A stretch of DNA of 64,000 bases from Eledone cirrhosa (Eukaryota): the NCBI GenBank assembly GCA_964016885.1, contig OZ024740.1, positions 257,734,001 through 257,798,000 on the forward strand, written 5' to 3'. Each line of letters begins with the position of its first letter. The first letter of the stretch is position 1. The notes beneath the pieces are model-generated. The model ran no database searches. It was not told where the DNA came from and saw only the letters and a program-made list of their open reading frames with translations. Shown here piece by piece: positions 2,481 through 61,327 of this stretch. Both the position numbers and the translations under genes were made by a program.

Positions 2481-3877
2481 TAATACATTATAAAGAAAGA
2501 AGAAATATTAGTCATGAATAAAAGAATATAAATAATCAATATTCCTCTACATTCTCGTTTGTACAGTTTCGCGGCTATTTTGCAAAAGCACTACATCATA
2601 GAGATGCAGTATTCCTGTGAGGTTTGCCAGCTTATCAAGAGAATACCTCATTTAAAGTTTCAAATACGTCTTCAAGTCGCGAGAGAGAACCAGAATGGCG
2701 GGGAGGGGGACGTATCACGTGATATAGCGGTCACGAAACAGAGTTAAGCCTCTTACAACCAAGAGAAAAATACCACAATGGCGGAGAGGGCATTAATATC
2801 TAGGCTACAGACGAGGTGGCCAAGGAGGGCTTGAAGTGGAAATAGTTTAAGCTTGACAGCAGTCACTATACTTCCGTGGTTACTCTACCGTAGGGAGTTA
2901 TAGACAATAAAAAGAAATACACAGATACATTCGAATACATACATATACATGCATATACACACATATATCCCTGAATTTGTGTGGTGCCAACCTTAACCGT
3001 TGTTGCTCTATGATTAATAGGGACAAAATAATCTGAATGAAATAGATTGACTCTATATCAGAGCTATATAATACATTATAAAGAAGAAACATTAGACATA
3101 AAAAAATATATATAAATACCCAATATTACTCTACATTCTCGATTGTACAGTTTCGCGGCTACTTTGCAAAAACACTACATCATAGGGATATAGTATTCCT
3201 GTGAGGTTTGCCAGCTTATCCAGAGAATACCTTTATTTAACGTTTCAAAATACGTCTGCAAGGCGCGAGAGAGAACTCGGAAAAGGGGAGGTAGAATTTA
3301 TCACCTATAACTCCCTACGGTAGAGTAACCACGGAAGAATAGTGACTGCTGTCAAGCTTACACTATTTACACATAGCCACCTCGTCTGTAGCCTAGATAT
3401 TAATGCCCCCTACGCAATTGTTGTATTTTTCTCTTGGTTGCAAGAGGCTTAACTCTGTTTCTTGACCGCTGTATCACGTGATAATTCCCCTCCGCCTTCG
3501 CGGGTTCTCTCTCGCGCCTTGCAGACGTATTTTGAAACTTTAAATGAGGTATTCTCTTGATAAGCTGGCAAACCTCACAGAAATACTGCATCTCTATGAT
3601 GTAGTGTTTTTGCAAAGTAGCCGCGAAACTGTAGAGTCGAGAATGTTGAGGAATATTTGCTATTTATTTTTTTTTTTTCAAGTCTATGTTTCTTCTTTCT
3701 TTATAATGTATTATATAGCTCTGATAGAGAGTCAATCTAATTCATTCAGATTATTTTGTCCCTGTTAATCATAGAGCAACAACGGTTAAGTTTGGCACCA
3801 CACAAATCCAGGGATATTTGTGCGTATATGCATGTATATGTATGTATTCGCATGTACCTGTGTATTTCTTTTTATTG

Positions 3878-7890: not shown

Positions 7891-8053
7891 TATATATATA
7901 TATATATATATATTTAGAAAGTGAGGTTTTTTTTTAACAAAATGAAAAATAACTGAGGTGTCCTACACGAGTGAAAGTATAAAGAAAAAGAGATGAAATC
8001 GAAAATGCAATTGGAGTCTTATTTTTTATAAAAATATATATATTTATTTGGCT

Positions 8054-8091
8054 CCTTTACCGGTTTCGCAGTTCTCCTGCTTTTCAAAAGG
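8054..8091 (-). ncRNA. Minimal type I hammerhead, U3-A8 core
   Basis: Reverse complement reads CCTT-TTGAAAA-GCAG GAGAA CTGC-GAAA-CCGG-TA-AAGG. Confidence 0.75.
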
Positions 8092-8168
8092 TGAGTTGAG
8101 ATGGAGGGTCTGTGTTTTTTCTCACATCTCAGATGTGAGAAAAACCACAGACCCTCCATCTCAACTCA

Positions 8169-8206
8169 CCTTTTGAAAAGCAGAAGAACTGCGAAACCGG
8201 TAAAGG
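8169..8206 (+). ncRNA. Minimal type I hammerhead, U3-A8 core
   Basis: CCTT-TTGAAAA-GCAG AAGAA CTGC-GAAA-CCGG-TA-AAGG. Palindromic stem III, GUA site. Confidence 0.75.
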
Positions 8207-8273
8207 AACCAAATAAATATATATATTTTAAAAAAAAATAAGACTCCAGTTGCATTTTCGATTTCATCTCTTT

Positions 8274-8345
<72 letters not shown>

Positions 8346-16012: not shown

Positions 16013-16098
16013 ATCCCGTCTGTCGACAGTTTCGCTTGTGCTATATGGAAATGTGTAATCGCTGCATTATCAATGAGGTTTCAAGCTTATCAAGGGAT
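16013..16098 (-). ncRNA. Degenerate U3-A8 hammerhead, related to the 3551 family
   Basis: Reverse complement reads ATCCC-TTGATAA-GCTTG..CAAGC-GAAA-CTGTCGACAG-AC-GGGAT. Position U16.1 is mutated to A. Confidence 0.55.
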
Positions 16099-16576
16099 TC
16101 CTTCAGTTAGGACTAATTTTTTTTCGAAAGTGATCGCTGCCAGTAACAAATTCGAAAGGAGTGAAAATTATCACGTGGCTAGCGGTCAAAATAGAAGTGT
16201 TATGAAGAGTAGGCTGGTGGCCAGTAAGTAAATTGCTAGAAAAAGTAGTTATATATATATATATATATATATACACAAATTAAAGATAGAATGACATATA
16301 TAGAAATATATCAAACAATACACTGGAGATAATTTATAAAATGCACATTGAGCAAAACGCACATGGAGTTATGAAAATAACAACGCACTTTAGTTTTGTC
16401 TACGTGGAGGTGAATATATTAACTTGCAAAAAATGTAAGAACATATTGATCACAAATGTTTCACCTTTGAAATGGATAAGTTCAATGTTTAGCTACGACC
16501 ATCAGCGAAAAGGAGCTAATCATATGCAGTTACGAAAATAACAGCGCGCTTGAGTTTTGTCTATATGACGTGATTG

Positions 16577-17118: not shown

Positions 17119-17161
17119 GTCAAAGTTCTTTCGTCACACATTGTGTGACCTCTTCAGTGAC
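17119..17161 (-). ncRNA. Minimal PLE hammerhead
   Basis: Reverse complement reads GTCA-CTGAAGA-G-GTCACAC AAT GTGTGAC-GAAA-GAAC-TT-TGAC. Confidence 0.7.
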
Positions 17162-19217
17162 TGGGGATTCTTTTCTTTGTTTTTGTGCCTCTCCTTTGTT
17201 CTGTCCTACGCCATCTTGTTTTTGTGTGAGTTGTGTGCTTAGTTTGCGCATGTGTTACATCCGGGTGTCTATGTGTGTTTACATTTGTTTATTTATTTGT
17301 TTATTTACATGTTACTGGTTGGTTGTTTTTCTATGTGTGTGTGTGTTTCATTTTGTCCTTACTTGTAAGTTGTGATGTTGCTATTCCATTTATGTTTTCT
17401 ATTTAATTTTGGTTGTAATTCTTTTATGTTTATTGCCTCTGCGATTTGTCTAAACATTGTGTCTTTTCTGTGTGTAGATTCTATTTTTATTTCTATGTTC
17501 TCTAATTTGCCTTTATGTTCTATTTTAGCATGTTGGTGGAGTACATATGATTCTTTTCTATCTTGAAGTTCTCGCCAGTGTTCATTTAACCGTTCTCCTA
17601 TACTACGAGCTGTCTCACCTATGTACACTATATTCTTATCTTTACATTGTCCTTCAGTACATCTTATGCTATATACTACATTTCTAGTTTTACAGTTAAT
17701 ATGGGGCTTAGTTTACAGATTATACATTTCATATCTATACAGAGAGGTCTTTGGAAAGGGTATGTATTGTTAATAAGTGCTTCTATGGGGGTACCTTTGT
17801 CTTTCTACTATCTTAATATTAAGTTTATATTTATCTAGGACCCTTCTAAATTTGTAAGTTAATTCATCTCTAGTATTGATGAATATTACACTCTGGTATT
17901 TGTTGCTATCATACCATAAGTTTATTCTATTAACTTTATTCCTACTTCTTTCTATTCTATTCCAAAATTTGCTCCCATACAAGGGGCAGGTGGCATTTGT
18001 ATCATTATTTACCATTTGTTCCCATTTGGTTCTGGCTCCTCTATATACTCTGATTTTATCTCTCTGATTGTAACCAGAGAACTGCATACGGTGGATGGAG
18101 TGTTGTATGTGTCTCTCTAGTTCTTTGGGGTTGCACATGCGGGACACGTTTCTCATCAGCCGTACCAAATCCGCAATCAGTATGTTGATTTTGGTGTGAT
18201 CCGAAACAGCTAGGTTTCGGTGGATCAGATATTTGGAAGTCATGTGTTTGGCATAATGGGAATGGAGGATTTGTTATTTGTTATTAATGGTTTCTAACCA
18301 GAGCTCTGTGTCTAGTACAGCTAATCCATGGTTGGGCTGTTTGCTTGGGTAGTCTATAGTAACTCTAATATTCTGGTGGATGGAGTTAGCTATTTGCTGG
18401 ATGCTTTCCATGGTGTTTTTCTCTAATTCTTGACTGTTCTCTAGTGGGGGTGTTTTTACTACGATGTTTATATCATCAACGTAGCGGGAGTACATTATCA
18501 GGGTTAAGAGGTTGCTATCTTCTAATTGTTCTTTAAGTTTAAGTTGAAGTCTATTGTCGCACCATACAATGAATAGGTTTGCTATGTCACCTGCAATGCT
18601 AACACCAATGGCTGCTCACTCCTCTTGGGCATATGTTTTTCCATTGTATAGATATGAAATGTATAATCTGTAAACTAAGCCCCATATTAACTGTAAAAGT
18701 AGAAATGTTGTATATAGCATAAGATTTACTGAGGGACAATGTAAAGATAAGAATATAATGTACATAGGTGAGACAGCTCGTAGTATAGGAAAACGGTTAA
18801 ATGAACACTGGCGAGAACTTCAAGATAGAAAAGAATCATCTGTACTCCACCAACATCCTAAAATAGAACATAAGGGCAAACTAGAGAACATAGAAATAAA
18901 AATAGAATCTACACACAGAAAAGACGCAATGTTTAGAGAAATCACAGAGGCAATAAACATAAATACTCCAACCAAAATTAAATAGAAAACATAAATGGAA
19001 TAGCAAAATCACAACTTAAAATTAAGGACAAAATGAAAACACACACACACATAGAACAAACAACCAACCAGTAAATAAACAAATAAATAAACAAATATAA
19101 ACACACACAGACATCCGGATGTAACACATGCGCAAACTAAGCACACAACACACACACAAACAAGATGGCGTAGGACAGAACAAAGGAGAGGCACACAAAC
19201 AAAGAAAAGAATCCACA

Positions 19218-19260
19218 GTCACTGAAGAGGTCACACAATGTGTGACGAAAGAACTTTGAC
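19218..19260 (+). ncRNA. Minimal PLE hammerhead, inverted copy
   Basis: GTCA-CTGAAGA-G-GTCACAC AAT GTGTGAC-GAAA-GAAC-TT-TGAC. Confidence 0.7.
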
Positions 19261-23670: not shown

Positions 23671-24105
23671 CATATATATATATATATGTAAATATATATA
23701 TATGTATATATATATATATGTGTGTATATATATATATATGTATATGTATATGTATATATATATGTATATATATACATGTATATGTATATATATACATGTA
23801 TATATATATATATATACATGTATATGTATATATATATGTATATGTATATGTATATATATATATATATGTATATATGTATATGTATATATATATATATCCA
23901 TATATATTTATATAAATATATGTATATATATATATTTATATATATATATAGAGATATATATATGTATATATATATACATATATTTATATACATATACATA
24001 CACATATACATATATGTATATATTTATATACATATACATATATATATATGTTTACATTTACATATATGTATACATATACATATACATATATGCATATATA
24101 TATAT

Positions 24106-24321
24106 ATTAGAAAGTGAGGTTTTTTTTACCAAATGAAAAATAACCGATGTGTCCTACACGAGTGAAAGTATAAAGAAAAAAAGATGCAATCAAAAATGCA
24201 ACTGGAGTCTTATTTAAAAAAAATATATATATATTTATTTTGTTCTTTTACCGGTTTCGCAGTTATTGTGCTTTTCAAAAGTAGAGTTGAGATGGAAGGT
24301 CTGTGGTTTTTTTCACATCTG
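24106..24321 (-). mobile_element. PLE-type terminus, same family as 7914-8277, with a U3-A8 hammerhead at 24245-24281
   Basis: Reverse complement reads CTT-TTGAAAA-GCAC AATAA CTGC-GAAA-CCGG-TA-AAAG. Confidence 0.75.
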
Positions 24322-24499
24322 GTTGGTCTTTGAATGTTACTTGTTTTATATGGAAAAAAATGTATGTATGTATATATACGTATATATATATATTTGTCGA
24401 GACCAGGGAAGCTTCCCGCTCAGGGGAAGTTGCCTGACAGACAATGATATTAACTAGCCATAATAGCGTCAAGTATTATATAGCGGCCACCTCTGGCTC

Positions 24500-27578: not shown

Positions 27579-27637
<59 letters not shown>

Positions 27638-27670
27638 AAAGAATAGAGGTGTAACACACGAGTTATGATA

Positions 27671-28049
27671 TATTGGTAAAAGGAAAAGAAAATGCTGACA
27701 AATTGTTCCCAGTGAAAAATACTTTAATTAGGAATAAGTAAAAATTAGTAATAGTATCGGTTAGTATTCTGTTTTGGTTTTAAGTTTAACCGGTTGCGCA
27801 TTTCTAAAGGTTTTCAAAAATAATTTTGAGAGAGAGCTCCCGTGATGTTTGCTCTAATCTGATTAGAGCAAACATCACGAGCGCACTATCTCGAAATTAT
27901 TTTTGAAAAGCATTAGAAATGTGCACCCGGTAAAACTTAAAACCAAAACTGAATACTAACCAATACTATTACTAATTTTTACTTATTCCTAATTAAACTA
28001 TATTTCACTGGGAACAATTTGTCAGCATTTTCTTTTCCTTTTACCAATA
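27671..28049. repeat. Fold-back palindrome of about 380 bp, centre about 27860, each arm holding a decayed U3-A8 hammerhead
   Basis: GCTCTAATC-T-GATTAGAGC at the centre. The arm consensus approximates TTGAAAA-GCATT AGA AATGC-G(c)AA-CCGG-TA-AAA. Confidence 0.85.
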
Positions 28050-45673: not shown

Positions 45674-45738
45674 TATTTTATTATACATATTTCAAGGATA
45701 CCATGTTAAATTATGGTATGCTTTCATCAGACAAAATA
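45674..45738 (-). ncRNA. Type I hammerhead, inverted arm
   Basis: Reverse complement of 48916-48980. Confidence 0.75.
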
Positions 45739-46182
45739 CAATATATACCAGTTTTATAAATAAATATTGGCATACCCTTTCAAAATGCGACCGTTACTTT
45801 TTGAAGACATCAGGGTAGTGGATTTGTTTATCTTAGTAAGTCGTTGTGTTACAGAGAAGGAAAAAGACGGAAAGAGAGAAAAAAGACGGAGAGAAAAAAA
45901 CCGAGAGAGAGAAAAGTGGAGAAAGAAAGAGAGAGATAAAGAAAGAAAAAGAGAAAAAAGAAAGAAGAAAAAAGAAAAAATAAAAAAGAAAAAAGAAAAA
46001 AGAAAAAAGAAAAAAGAAAAAAGAAAAAAGAAACAAGAAACAAGAAACAAGAAAAAAAGAAAAAAGAAAAAAGAAAAAAGAAAAAAGAAAAAAGAAAGAA
46101 GAAAAAAGAAAAAAGAAAAAAGAAAAAAGAAAATAGAAAAAAGAAAAAAGAAAAAAAGAAAAAAAGAAAAAAGAAAAAAAAC

Positions 46183-47275
46183 CGGTTTATATCGTGACGA
46201 CATGCTTTTACTTATAGAAAATAATAGCTGTGAACTAAATAGAAAAAGAAAACAAACTATACAATTTTTTAATTACCTTAATCTAAAAGTAGAAATAGAG
46301 AATAACCATAAAATAGTCAATTTTCTAGAGGTAACACTAAATCTTAACACCTGTCTTCATTATCCATTTCACAAACTGAATGAGAACTTAAATTATGTCA
46401 ATTTTAACTCTAATCAACCCAGATCCGTTAAAAATACTATAGTGAACTCTGTACAAGAACGAATTTCGAGAATTTCATCTAATAAGAATATATTCGTTGA
46501 AAAAGCGCATTATTACAACGAAGCGTTACGTAGAGCTGGATATAGAAATAAAATTAAATACATCGATAATAATAATACTATAAAAACTAACCAAAATAAT
46601 AACAATCTTAACTATGGTAACAATTTTAACAACTATAATAGAAAACATTACAATAATTCCGAAAGCCGAAAAAAAAATAGAACTAGGAATATAGTATGGT
46701 TCGCTCCTCCTTTCTCACTAAATATTAAAACCCCTATTGCTAAACTATTCTTTAAAGCTCTCGACAAACGCTTCCCTAGAACACATAGATATTACTCAAT
46801 TTTTAATAGACATACTATAAAATTATCTTACTCTTCCACCAAAAATTTAGCGCAAAATATTAATAGAATTAATAATAGAAATTTAAAACCTAACCAAAAT
46901 ACCAATAATAACCCAAGCAATAGTCAATCGAATAATTGTAACTGTAGAAATAAATCCAACTGTCCGTTAAATAACAATTGCTTAGCTAAAAATGTAGTTT
47001 ATAATTGTAATGTAAAAACTAATTTAAATTCATTTAATTATGTCGGTTCTACCTCCACAGAGTTTAAATCCCGCTTCAATAATCATAAAAATTCTTTTAC
47101 AGATCCAAACAAAAAATCTTCAACTTCGTTAACTAGCCTATTATGGGACCTAAAACGAGATAATGTTGAATATTCGCTGATTTGGAATATTATTTCGAAA
47201 GCTACTCCTTTTAATTCCTCTTCTGAAAATTGCGATCTTTGTATAGAGGAAATATTCCCTAAATTTAAGGAATAA
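46183..47275 (+). CDS. PLE RT C-terminus, linker and GIY-YIG endonuclease (about 360 aa open; no start, C-terminus damaged)
   Basis: GLYRDD, VNFLEVTLNL, YVNFNSN.P, RNIVWFAPPFS, IFNRHTIKLSYS, CNC..CPL...C, VVY..YVG, FKSRFNNH and CDLCIEE. Confidence 0.88.
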
Positions 47276-48915
47276 TGTATTCAGTTGCTGCAGACATAGA
47301 TTGAACTCAACGTTTAAATATAAATATAAATTTAAAATGTAGTATAATTAATTAAGTAATTTGGTTAATATATGAAACCTGTCGATAAATCATTAGATTC
47401 CTTCACCTTTTTCATTTTTTTTGGTTAAGTACTCAAGTATAAATAAATTTTCTTCCTAAATATAAATATAAATATAATAAACTATTCTAGAGAAATATAT
47501 TGAGAGCTCTTGAAAGGAGAAAATATTTCCTATTTCTTATATTTTTTCATATTTTTCATATTTTTTATTTTTTATATTTTTTTTTTAATATTTTATTTAT
47601 TTTTTATTAGGTTTGTTTTTATTCTAATAGCTTCTAATAATTTTCGAAAGTTTATCCTTTCAATATCTTGAGTAAAATATACGTAAGATAAATTTCTATA
47701 CTAAATCTATTAAACATATTATTTTAACTTAAAATATTCTATAATATTTTAAAATATTTTAATATTTTAATATTTTAGATTTCTTTTGTTTTTAAGTTAT
47801 ATTGATATAATTATATTTCCAAAATATAATCCTTTTGTATTTTATGTACTCAATTATACTATGTAATATATTCATGTATACTTATCTCTATACGAGTATG
47901 TATGTATATGTGTGTATTAACATACATATACATGTGTTATATGCATTTTTATGAATATATGTCTGTCTGTATATATGCATGGGTGACGCGTGTCTACCAA
48001 TTGGGTGAGGATGCACACACATGTTTATATATGTATATGTAAGAATTGTGTGTGTACATGTACATGTATACCCATACAATTTGATTGCAGATAGGCATAA
48101 TTTAACAGCCATAAATGCATGAAAGCTAATCCTATGTATTTTTATATATATATATTAAACATTTTTATTTAATAACACAAGGGATGTATAACATTAATAA
48201 AAAAAATAAAAAAAATCATTTATGCTTTGTATGTATGTATATATTATATACGGGAGTAGACATAATGTGTATCTTCTGAGTGTGTATATATATATATTTA
48301 TGTGTATTGTTGCGTGTGTGTACGTGTTACATGATAGGTAATTTTCTCTAGCAATATATACATTTTTAATGTTTAAATTCCAATTTTTAATATATTGATC
48401 TCAATTTTTAAACTAAATCATAGTTAAACAATGATTAATTTCTCATATTATAAATGTATATTCCATTCATGAATATTAATATTTCTAATTTTATTTATTC
48501 ATTTCATCTCAATTGTTAACTTAACTTAATATGACATGACTTAATGTTTTCGATCTCTCCTCCCCGCTATCTCTATATTTCTCTCTCTTGATTTTTTTCT
48601 CTCTGTCTGGTGTTTTGATATCTCTCTCTTGTTTTTTTCTCTTTTTTCCTTTTTTCTTTTTTCTTTTTTCTTTTTCTCTTCTTCTTTCTTTATCTCTCCC
48701 TTTCTTTCTCCACTTTTCTCTCTCTCGGTTTTTTCTCTCTCTCCGTCTTTTTTCTCTCTCTCCGTCTTTTTTCTCTCTCTCTCCGTCTTTTTCCTTCTCC
48801 GTAACATAACGACTTACTAAGATAAACAACTCCACTATCCCTGATGTCTTCCAAAAGTAACGGTCGCATTTTGAAAGGGTATGTCAATATTTATTTATAA
48901 AACTGGTATATATTG

Positions 48916-48980
48916 TATTTTGTCTGATGAAAGCATACCGTAATTTAACATGGTATCCTTGAAATATGTATAATAAAATA
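48916..48980 (+). ncRNA. Type I hammerhead at the PLE 3' terminus
   Basis: TATTTTGT-CTGATGA-AAG C ATACC..GGTAT C CTT-GAAA-TATGTA-TA-ATAAAATA. Confidence 0.75.
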
Positions 48981-58960: not shown

Positions 58961-59769
58961 CTTCGATTCGTCTGCAATTATGCAAACACGAATTTTTAAG
59001 CCGTGTCAGTAGAATGAGCCCCTCATTCTGAAATGGCTTAAAAGAGGCTTGTTTGCATAATTGCAAATAAATCTAATATTATTATTAATATTCGAAAAAC
59101 TCAGATTACATTACATATATATACACATATATACATATATATACGTGAGTATGTGTGTGTGACTGTATGCATATATATTCATAATAGATACTATTTTCTG
59201 TCTTAATATATGCAAACAAGTGAACATATAGCCTATACATTATCTACGTAGATATGTATAATAAGATAAGATATGAAGTATCTACACATACTTATTACAT
59301 AGAACACTCAAGATGTATCTATATATAGAAACCAACAGAATATATAATTTTAGATAGATGTACACGACGAAATACGTCACATTTATGTATATACAAACCC
59401 ACAAACACACACACACATATATATATTTATATAAATGTGTATACATACATATATATATTTATTTATACAGAGATGTGTAACATCCTGAGCGCGGCGCCAA
59501 GCGGTTTCGGCTTGTCTGTTCAGCAACCCCTTTTCAAGGGCGTAGTAATATCTATTGGGTATTACAAAATAGATAATTGGCCTTGGTAATGTTTTAATTG
59601 AGTCTATCAAACTTGTAGACTGGTCAGATGCAGGAAATAGGGGGGGGGGGGGGTCAGGCAGCGGTAAGTATATCCTGACAGGCATGGGGTCAGGAGAAAG
59701 AAGTAATGTGGGTGGGGATAGGGGTGGTTAGTGGGTAGGAGTAGAGTAGAAGGGGCATAAAGGCCTAAG

Positions 59770-61327
59770 AGGTATAGAAGTGAAAAATTAGCAGTAAAAT
59801 CTGGGTTATATAAAAGTGAAGAATTAACAGTAAAATGTGGGTTATATAAAAGTGAAGAATTAACAGTTAAATATGGGGTATGTAGAAGTGAAGAATTAAC
59901 AGTAAAATGTGAGTTATATAGAAGTGAAGAATTAACAGTAAAAAGTGGGTTATATACAAGGGAAGAATTAACAGTAAAATGAGAGTGATATACAAGGGAA
60001 GAATTAACAGTAAAATGTGAGTTATATACAAGGGAAGAATTAACAGTAAAATGTGGGTTATATACAAGGGAAGAATTAACAGTAAAATGTGAGTTATATA
60101 CAAGGGAAGAATTAACAGTAAAATGTGAGTTATATACAAGGGAAGAATTAACAGTAAAATGTGGGTTATATACAAGGGAAGAATTAACAGTAAAATGTGA
60201 GTTATATACAAGGGAAGAATTAACAGTAAAATGTGGGTTATATACAAGGGAAGAATTAACAGTAAAATGTGAGTTATATACAAGGGAAGAATTAACAGTA
60301 AAAAGTGGGTTATATAGAAGTGAAGAATTAACAGTAAAAAGTGGGTTATATACAAGGGAAGAATTAACAGTAAAATGTGAGTTATATACAAGGGAAGAAT
60401 TAACAGTAAAATGTGGGTTATATACAAGGGAAGAATTAACAGTAAAATGTGAGTTAGATACAAGGGAAGAATTAACAGTAAAACGTTGGGTTATATAGAA
60501 GTGAAGAATTAACAGTAAAAAGTGGGTTATATAAAAGTGAAGAATTAACAGTTAAATATGGGTTATGTAGAAGTGAAAAATTAACAGTAAAATGTGAGTT
60601 ATATAGAAGTGAAGAATTAACAGTAAAATGTGGGTTATATAGAAGTGAAGAATTAACAGTAAAAAGTGGGTTATATACAAGGGAAGAATTAACAGTAAAA
60701 TGTGAGTTATATACAAGGGAAGAATTAACAGTAAAATGTGGGTTATATACAAGGGAAGAATTAACAGTAAAATGTGAGTTAGATACAAGGGAAGAATTAA
60801 CAGTAAAAAGTGGGTTATATAGAAGTGAAGAATTAACAGTAAAAAGTGGGTTATATAAAAGTGAAGAATTAACAGTTAAATATGGGTTATGTAGAAGTGA
60901 AGAATTAACAGTAAAATGTGAGTTATATAGAAGTGAAGAATTAACAGTAAAATGTGGGTTATATAGAAGTGAAGAATTAACAGTAAAATGTGGGTTATAT
61001 AGAAGTGAAGAATTAACAGTAAAAAGTGGGTTATATCCCAGGGAAGAATTAACAGTAAAATGTGGGTTATATACAAGGGAAGAATTAACAGTAAAATGTG
61101 GGTTATATAGAAGTGAAGAATTAACGGTAAAATATGGGTTATATACAAGGGAAGAATTAACAGTAAAAAGTGGGTTATATACAAGGGAAGAATTAACAGT
61201 AAAAAGTGGGTTATATACCAGAGAAGAATTAACAGTGAAAAGTGGGTTATATACCAGGGAAGAATTAACAGTAAAATCAGGTTATATACAAGGGAAGAAT
61301 TAACAGTAAAATGTAGGTTATATACAA
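59770..61327. repeat. 36-bp minisatellite, about 43 copies (AAGAATTAACAGTAAAATGTGGGTTATATACAAGGG)
   Basis: Directly visible. The ORF track shows the matching 12-aa periodicity THILLLILPLYI. Confidence 0.95.

What the first reader, a model, noticed from the sequence alone, without database searches (positions are those of the whole stretch)
8054..8206. Perfect minimal hammerheads with the U3-A8 core, recurring in several unrelated families
Seen: CCTT-UUGAAAA-GCAG(N5)CUGC-GAAA-CCGG-UA-AAGG on both strands here. UUGAnAA cores also occur at 24245-24281, about 27786-27935, 59494-59543 and in the 3551/16013 family. Known: C3-G8 is a tertiary Watson-Crick pair, U3-A8 is a tolerated but uncommon natural swap, and minimal PLE HHRs with a palindromic stem III are proposed to act as dimers. 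Inference: U3-A8 is the standard core in several families of this genome, and CUGAnGA-only searches would miss them.
Basis: partly seen in the sequence, partly recalled or inferred. Interest (0 to 1): 0.72.

Follow-up and report, generated by a model that had tools for sequence, protein, structure and literature searches.

The report
Known hammerhead variant in Penelope stub
The two mirror-image hammerhead motifs are the two arms of one short insertion of an abundant Penelope-type jumping gene, their U3-A8 core is a published variant carried by a minority of this genome's hammerheads, and the RNA likely cuts itself weakly if at all, while a sister family spread to thousands of copies with a further core change (C13) that I did not find in print.

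Summary
The motifs at 8169-8206 (+) and 8054-8091 (-) are real type I hammerhead folds with U3-A8. They are the arms of one head-to-head, 5'-truncated insertion (7914-8277, in TA repeats) of a Neptune/Nematis-type Penelope-like element, with 10,581 pattern matches genome-wide (control 0) and full-length copies encoding RT plus GIY-YIG. U3-A8 is the majority state in all five window families and occurs in two PLE clades. It is a minority overall: 64 C3-G8 against 13 U3-A8 (18 with C13) and 3 mismatched in 1.11 Mb. Natural U3-A8 and opposite-strand pairs are published (PMC3088659, PMC4209133), and this scan has met them before on other DNA. 'Perfect' and 'unrelated' are overstated: four other named sites are decayed copies, 24245 is the same family and 27786 a sister. 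Extras: 11 of 13 unselected insertions read through the predicted cut and 2 stop exactly on it; U3 is predicted to pair with A17, a possible trap; the autonomous sister family (3,596 matches) is fixed for A13C. Cleavage is untested. Verdict: new member of a known kind, low interest.

The parts
7914..8277 (.). One head-to-head, 5'-truncated insertion of a Neptune/Nematis-type Penelope-like element (pLTR-only stub)
   Evidence: arms 95.5% and 99.3% identical to the upstream pLTR of full-length copy L133
7914..8129 (-). Long arm, positions -72 to +147 relative to the predicted cut
8130..8277 (+). Short arm, positions -73 to +79
8169..8206 (+). Type I hammerhead motif, U3 at 8173, A8, A17 at 8202; predicted cut 8202/8203
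8054..8091 (-). Same motif on the long arm, U3 at 8087, one loop II change; predicted cut 8058/8057
7914..7977 (-). 'Tail' present on the long arm only: sequence between the two fixed 3' ends (+79, +147), inferred reverse-transcription start sites
   Evidence: 78 of 93 inverted pairs have one short and one long arm
8129..8131 (.). Inversion centre at -72/-73, the family's main 5' boundary, inferred RNA 5' end
7891..7913 (.). (TA)n target, left flank
8278..8339 (.). (TA)n target, right flank
24101..24358 (-). Older single-arm copy of the same family with a decayed hammerhead (24245-24282)
   Evidence: 91.9%
27631..28049 (.). Inverted stub of the sister family with U3-A8 plus C13; both cores (27900-27935 +, 27786-27820 -) decayed
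2515..3680 (.). Three copies of the 3551 family (2515-2671 -, 3101-3259 - with G3, 3521-3680 +): U3-A8, long stem II, palindromic stem III, C17, about 590-bp period
16013..16100 (-). Decayed copy (A at 16.1) of a U3-A8, C17 family
   Evidence: 19 of 20 relatives U3-A8
59494..59543 (-). Decayed copy of a U3-A8, C17 family whose majority has a 5-bp stem III
   Evidence: 18 of 20 relatives U3-A8

Best explanation
The feature is a dead, pLTR-only, head-to-head stub of a young Neptune/Nematis-type Penelope-like retrotransposon, whose pLTR carries a U3-A8 type I hammerhead motif that is predicted to fold as a dimer and likely cuts only a minority of element RNAs. Shown: the element's structure, its two fixed 3' ends in (TA)n, its 5' boundary at -72/-73, and arms that share variants. 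Inferred: the element RNA starts at -72/-73 in the upstream pLTR. The GIY-YIG domain nicks both strands of a (TA)n tract, and RT starts at two internal sites (+147, +79) downstream of the hammerhead. It copies through an uncut or re-ligated hammerhead to the RNA 5' end, and the second arm is made from the same template by fold-back or template jump. In the parent RNA two hammerheads pair through the ACCGGU palindrome. U3-A8 replaces the C3-G8 pair, but U3 can also pair with A17 over the cut site, which would lower activity. At this locus any read-through RNA folds into a hairpin of about 145 bp that buries the motif.
For: Full-length copy L133: pLTR(HHR)-ORF-3'UTR-pLTR(HHR), period 4,915. L132 has a 770-aa open stretch with RVT_1 (5e-7) and C-terminal GIY-YIG (7.6e-5) and a CX4CxxC linker. 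78 of 93 inverted pairs have one +79 and one +147 end; arm-to-arm divergence is 2.8% against 5.2% between insertions; arms agree at subfamily sites (51 of 54 at -35). Four inverted pairs carry the same rare core variant on both arms (3 among 58 rows, 1 among 36 rows). 4,214 copies end at -76..-67. Of 13 unselected insertions, 8 end at -73..-64, 2 are longer, 1 ends at -18 and 2 end exactly at the cut. Double hammerhead -18.9 kcal/mol against -4.7 per monomer; whole-locus hairpin -229. P(U3-A17) is 0.56 as monomer and 0.46 in the dimer. The G17-C3 trap is described in PMC3884650, and internal RT starts with uncut template in PMC11167929.
Against: No cleavage assay, and no RNA data. The excess at the cut site rests on 2 insertions. 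Genome-wide junction searches showed no peak there (11 of 100 rows at 0 against 8-14 for neighbours; 2 of 50 sites), though both patterns are nearly blind to AT-rich junctions. Read-through cannot separate uncut RNA from cut-and-circularised RNA. Shared arm variants could also come from later gene conversion: 53 private variants are on one arm and only 5 on both. Most pairs were picked by pattern searches. PMC3846280 instead proposes self-priming on an antisense template. ViennaRNA does not model the tertiary U3-A8 pair.
Confidence: 0.75

Rival explanations
1. The hammerhead cuts efficiently as a dimer, the RNA is ligated to a circle, and RT reads across the sealed junction, so read-through says nothing about weak activity.
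For: The core is conserved between families 55% identical in protein, with a compensatory change in stem II. The younger subfamily has a fourth stem I pair that the older lacks (divergence 2.7% against 4.1%). The circle model is proposed in PMC4209133.
Against: A circle cut at both hammerheads has no free end at -72/-73, yet most unselected insertions stop there (8 of 13; 4,214 genome-wide). Full-length L133 keeps 375 nt upstream of its first hammerhead.
Confidence: 0.1
2. In this lineage the motif is kept for a non-catalytic job, such as pairing two RNAs through the palindrome or binding the RT dimer, and no longer needs to cut.
For: An autonomous sister family reached at least 3,596 matches with C13 and a 3-pair A-U stem I. 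Its two subfamilies differ at 0 of 36 motif positions against 17 of 155 outside (p 0.046). U3 with A17 occurs in both families. PMC11167929 found hammerhead mutants do not impair insertion in vitro.
Against: The conservation test is weak, post hoc, and the invariant stretch extends upstream of the motif. 2 of 13 insertions of the 8054 family stop exactly at the cut.
Confidence: 0.12
3. The unit is an independent non-autonomous palindromic element (MITE-like or retrozyme) that moves as a hairpin.
For: The best 40 candidates share the same centre at 96-100% identity.
Against: That was selection by the query. Unselected pairs have spacings from 76 to over 4,000 bp, and longer pairs enclose ORF sequence (L132).
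Confidence: 0.03

Closest known systems
U3-A8 hammerheads in pLTRs of Cercyon PLEs, Schistosoma mansoni (Cervera and De la Pena 2014, PMC4209133; parts 1-2 of 4 read, supplement file 2 part 1 of 3)
   Same: Type I topology, U3-A8 covariant as a large minority class, palindromic 15.2-16.2 region, location in the pLTR, pairs on opposite strands 100-700 bp apart, proposed dimer
   Different: Here the host is Neptune/Nematis-type. Helix II is 4 bp with no extra base between 9 and 10.1, helix III keeps 2 bp plus CG, and N17 is A.
Natural U3-A8 core variants (Perreault et al. 2011, PMC3088659; section 8 and passages read)
   Same: The 3-8 pair covaries to U3-A8 in nature and is stated there to be active in vitro
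   Different: That section lists A6C, A6a, U13a and U15.1-A16.1 but no A13C; figure 5 itself was not visible to me.
C-terminal EN+ PLEs of the Neptune/Nematis type (Craig et al. 2021, PMC8557442; Arkhipova et al. 2013, PMC3846280; passages read)
   Same: RT, CX2-5CxxC linker, GIY-YIG with CCHH, partial tandem pLTRs, inverted 5'-truncated copy, one-sided tail, (TA)n bias
   Different: The tail is 68 nt in this family (37 nt in the C13 sister) against the usual 30-40, and a large share of copies are pLTR-only stubs ending at one 5' boundary.
PAc, Poseidon element of Anolis (Frangieh et al. 2024, PMC11167929; parts 1-2 of 4 read)
   Same: Two internal RT starts defining the tail, both target strands primed, uncut RNA as the main template
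   Different: PAc has C3-G8 and its hammerhead overlaps the ORF start. Here motif and both starts lie in the 5' UTR, and both starts sit at TATA, which matches the target.

Membership tests
Type I hammerhead motif of metazoan PLEs | Core N3-UGA-N-N8-A / GAAA / U16.1-H17 with a Watson-Crick 3-8 pair | tested here: met
   U3-A8, G12 A13 A14 A15.1, U16.1, A17
Type I hammerhead motif of metazoan PLEs | Stems I and II, with G10.1-C11.1 | tested here: met
   4 bp each; compensatory stem II change in the sister family; about half of family sequence has only 3 stem I pairs
Type I hammerhead motif of metazoan PLEs | Short palindromic helix III that allows a dimer | tested here: met
   ACCGGU; P(15.1-16.1 in trans) 0.92 in cofold; prediction only
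Type I hammerhead motif of metazoan PLEs | Position inside the pLTR of a PLE | tested here: met
   L133, both pLTRs
Type I hammerhead motif of metazoan PLEs | Site-specific self-cleavage after N17 | not testable with these tools
   Only indirect: 2 of 13 unselected insertions end at the predicted bond
min-HHR in the narrow S. mansoni sense | Extra base between 9 and 10.1, long helix II, no helix III | tested here: not met
   G10.1 follows A9 directly, helix II is 4 bp and helix III has 2 bp; not filed under this narrow class
Rfam hammerhead families | Score at the gathering threshold | tested here: not met
   0 hits in the window, C3-G8 motifs included
C-terminal EN+ Penelope-like element | Single ORF with RT followed by GIY-YIG | tested here: met
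   (L132); L133 has the same ORF broken by a frameshift and stops
C-terminal EN+ Penelope-like element | pLTR partial tandem, inverted 5'-truncated copy, one-sided tail | tested here: met
Neptune/Nematis type | CX2-5CxxC linker, CCHH in EN, DKG and GxKF motifs | tested here: met
   read directly from the L132 translation against the description in PMC8557442
Neptune versus Nematis | Placement in an RT tree with named reference elements | not tested
   No named references were at hand; one search used six sequences from this genome only
Non-LTR retrozyme | Non-coding tandem repeat unit | tested here: not met
   The 8054 family has coding parents and no short tandem unit; the 3551 family (about 590-bp period) does fit

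The most novel reading that the evidence does not exclude
One Neptune-type lineage has progressively detuned its hammerhead, first U3-A8 with A17 (a self-trapping pair) and then A13C in an autonomous sister family of thousands of copies, while keeping the fold and the palindrome. The motif is then either a protein-assisted ribozyme that tolerates C13 or an RNA-dimer or protein-binding module that need not cut. The ratio of insertions ending at the RNA start to those ending at the cut site would be a genomic record of in vivo cleavage, comparable across sister families.
Probability: 0.2. Interest if true: 0.58.

Novelty: new member of a known kind. Interest (0 to 1): 0.27.

Why it matters
The U3-A8 core itself adds little: it is in print for PLEs and this scan has met it repeatedly. 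The practical point stands that hammerhead searches need YUGANRA; here roughly one in five motifs found by the descriptor (18 of 87) would be missed otherwise. The residual value is a natural comparison for an open question, whether PLE hammerheads need to cut. Two sister autonomous families share RNA start, architecture and target but differ at position 13, and insertion ends offer a countable readout.

Tried and rejected
Rfam scan: no hit. The repeat finder was swamped by microsatellites. One search used a pattern one base too long (2 hits) and was redone. Fixed-centre hairpin element: rejected as query selection. RNA evidence: no RNA holder listed, which is no evidence either way; contig depths are not used as copy numbers. 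Genome-wide test for a pile-up of 5' ends at the cut: searches show none, but they need non-A bases upstream or both arms reaching +7, so they miss junctions onto (TA)n, including both exact cases. 262 against 4,214 is therefore not like for like: 37 of 100 rows pass the same filter by my hand count, about six-fold. (97 matches, C13 family) is blurred by an A-run and was not interpreted. The 'complement' control equals the reversed control and is not independent. Within-family counts of mismatched cores reflect mutation after insertion, not selection. One search failed to split C13 subfamilies; redone. No RT could be linked to the 3551, 16013 or 59494 families. PMC11014351, PMC6155905 (passages) and bioRxiv 2026.07.22.740005 (part 1 of 5) gave nothing on A13 or U3-A8. 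Lunse et al. 2017, Przybilski and Hammann 2007 and one recalled review were not held.

Full report
OBSERVATION. The motif reads as described at 8169-8206 (+) and 8091-8054 (-): 4-bp stem I, U3-UGA-A-A8-A9, 4-bp stem II, GAAA, ACCGGU, A17. Rfam gives no hit in the window, and the folding z-scores are unremarkable (-0.85, -0.42). A 36-nt family pattern matches G000 10,581 times against 0 for the reversed pattern. The two motifs are arms of one inverted repeat, 7914-8129 (-) and 8130-8277 (+), between (TA)n tracts. The genome is a 3.0-Gb animal assembly. The most identical named homolog of the element's protein is from Octopus bimaculoides (74% over 54% of the query), so an octopus-like host is inferred.

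THE HOST ELEMENT. Inverted pairs are 76 to over 4,000 bp apart, so the centre is not fixed. Of 20 stretches fetched around such matches, L133 holds two direct hammerheads 4,915 bp apart around a broken ORF, and L132 has a 770-aa open stretch inside an inverted pair. [quoted passage not shown] Neptune versus Nematis was not resolved. The window arms are 95.5% and 99.3% identical to L133's upstream pLTR.

HOW THE STUB FORMED. Positions are counted from the predicted cut. 3' ends fall at +79 or +147, both at TATA joined to (TA)n, and 78 of 93 inverted pairs have one of each (most loci were picked by pattern). This matches the two internal RT starts and the tail of PAc (PMC11167929, parts 1-2 of 4). 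Arms differ by 2.8% within a pair and 5.2% between insertions, and agree at subfamily sites (51 of 54 at -35). Five private variants lie on both arms and 53 on one. Four pairs share a rare core variant on both arms. One template for both arms is the simplest reading, and later conversion is not excluded. Many short junctions fit fold-back on 1-2 matching bases. 5' ends pile up with an edge at -72/-73: 4,214 matches for -76..-67. I infer this is the RNA start. PMC3846280 (passages) explains such palindromes by self-priming on an antisense template instead. I found no paper describing this pile-up, but earlier notes of this scan do.

DOES IT CUT? Untested. One search gave 25 arms not picked by a family query. 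I dropped 4 that are or may be partners of picked arms (L115, L116, L128 647-368, L217), leaving 13 insertions: 8 end at -73..-64, 2 are longer, 1 ends at -18, and 2 (L122, L155) end exactly at the predicted bond. So most templates were uncut or re-ligated, with a hint of minority cleavage. Genome-wide junction searches show no peak at the cut (11 of 100 rows against 8-14 at neighbouring positions, my hand count; 2 of 50 sites), but both are nearly blind to AT-rich junctions and would miss L122 and L155. The double hammerhead scores -18.9 kcal/mol against -4.7 per monomer without helix III. U3 is predicted to pair with A17 (0.56 monomer, 0.46 dimer), by analogy with the proposed C3-G17 trap (PMC3884650, abstract and passages). 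In line with that, A17 occurs in 13 of 17 C3-G8 clusters but in only 2 of 8 U3-A8 families, both of this lineage (p 0.028). That test is post hoc and the families are not independent.

HOW COMMON IS U3-A8? In 111 evenly spaced 10-kb stretches (1.11 Mb), a structural descriptor at score 24 or more found 82 GAAA motifs: 64 C3-G8 (11 in one tandem array), 13 U3-A8, 2 U3-G8, 1 C3-A8 and 2 other, plus 5 U3-A8 with C13. The reversed control gave 4, none of them C3-G8 or U3-A8. They group into 17 C3-G8 and 5 U3-A8 clusters, with no multi-copy mismatched cluster. The descriptor misses irregular stems such as the 3551 family, so the ratio is rough. The window itself has 7 C3-G8 motifs and one C3-U8. 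Within the 8054 family, 58 matches lack U3 (33 C, 14 G, 11 A; none with G8) and 36 lack A8 (15 G); these are mutations after insertion. 24245 is the same family and 27786 a sister. U3-A8 is still not one clade: a U3-A8 element with a Hydra-type CxCX5C linker (L036) groups with two C3-G8 elements (99/99), and holding the three U3-A8 proteins together is rejected (AU p 0.013; six proteins, one long branch).

THE C13 SISTER. The 27786 family has 3,596 exact matches, and 99 of the first 100 listed read GCAA instead of GAAA. It is autonomous: tandem copies 4,852 and 4,950 bp apart enclose a broken RT-EN ORF, 55% identical over 401 aa. It has a similar 5' boundary and two 3' ends 37 nt apart. Stem II covaries with the 8054 family, and stem I is three A-U pairs. 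Two subfamilies (47 and 9 arms) differ at 0 of 36 motif positions and 17 of 155 outside (p 0.046, weak). No other letter is listed at position 13 in contigs of four runs, including coded organisms B and C, which have few contigs and unknown identity. A13 is treated as invariant in PMC3088659; that changing it strongly lowers activity is recalled, not read. Searches for A13C or natural A13 variants found nothing beyond that paper, nor did earlier scan notes. Lunse et al. 2017 and Przybilski and Hammann 2007 were not held, and supplement file 1 of PMC4209133 could not be searched; these may bear on it.

WHAT IS KNOWN. PMC4209133 (parts 1-2 of 4, supplement in part) reports U3-A8 in S. mansoni PLE hammerheads (about 1,300 hits beside about 2,000), opposite-strand pairs 100-700 bp apart, dimer action and low activity. 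PMC3088659 (section 8) reports natural U3-A8. The scan has reported the variant repeatedly, in this genome too.

VERDICT. A real but ordinary PLE stub with a published core variant: new member of a known kind, interest 0.27. The parts worth a bench test are the C13 sister family and the U3-A17 pair.

Noticed in passing
L133 7470-7570 and L264 7230-7300 (5' UTR): Both sister families keep a short stem that closes across the downstream 3' end site, just before the ORF start; possible RT-start signal.
   Followed up: partly
family 5' boundary, window 8129-8131: Among rows ending at -72, 7 of about 21 non-templated preceding bases are G by my hand count; a weak hint of cap copying.
   Followed up: no
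window 45730-48924: Inverted pair of C3-G8 hammerheads around a 5'-truncated PLE with a Hydra-type CxCX5C linker (ORF stretch 45764-47272).
   Followed up: partly
window 17157-19222: Inverted pair of C3-G8 hammerheads around a third, distant PLE remnant; the predicted 15.2-16.2 region is GAAC or GGAC, not palindromic, in this abundant family (15 hits in 1.11 Mb).
   Followed up: no
window 59494-59543 family (L304-L322): The majority fold has a 5-bp stem III with a GGCGCC palindrome in the loop, so it could fold as a monomer or form a kissing dimer.
   Followed up: partly
window 2515-3680; L092, L145, L109: U3-A8 family with about 590-bp tandem and inverted units, retrozyme-like.
   Followed up: partly
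L069 281-3381: Array of 11 C3-G8 hammerheads at 310-bp period, a typical non-LTR retrozyme.
   Followed up: no
family position -35/-34 (window 24283-24284 versus 8168-8169): The older subfamily has 3 stem I pairs and the younger has 4 (divergence 4.1% against 2.7%).
   Followed up: partly
window 59630-61100: 36-bp minisatellite of about 42 units next to the 59494 copy.
   Followed up: no
one search hits P0012, P0038, P0040, P0061, P0120: PLE proteins named as symbiont MAG proteins, probably host DNA in bacterial bins.
   Followed up: no
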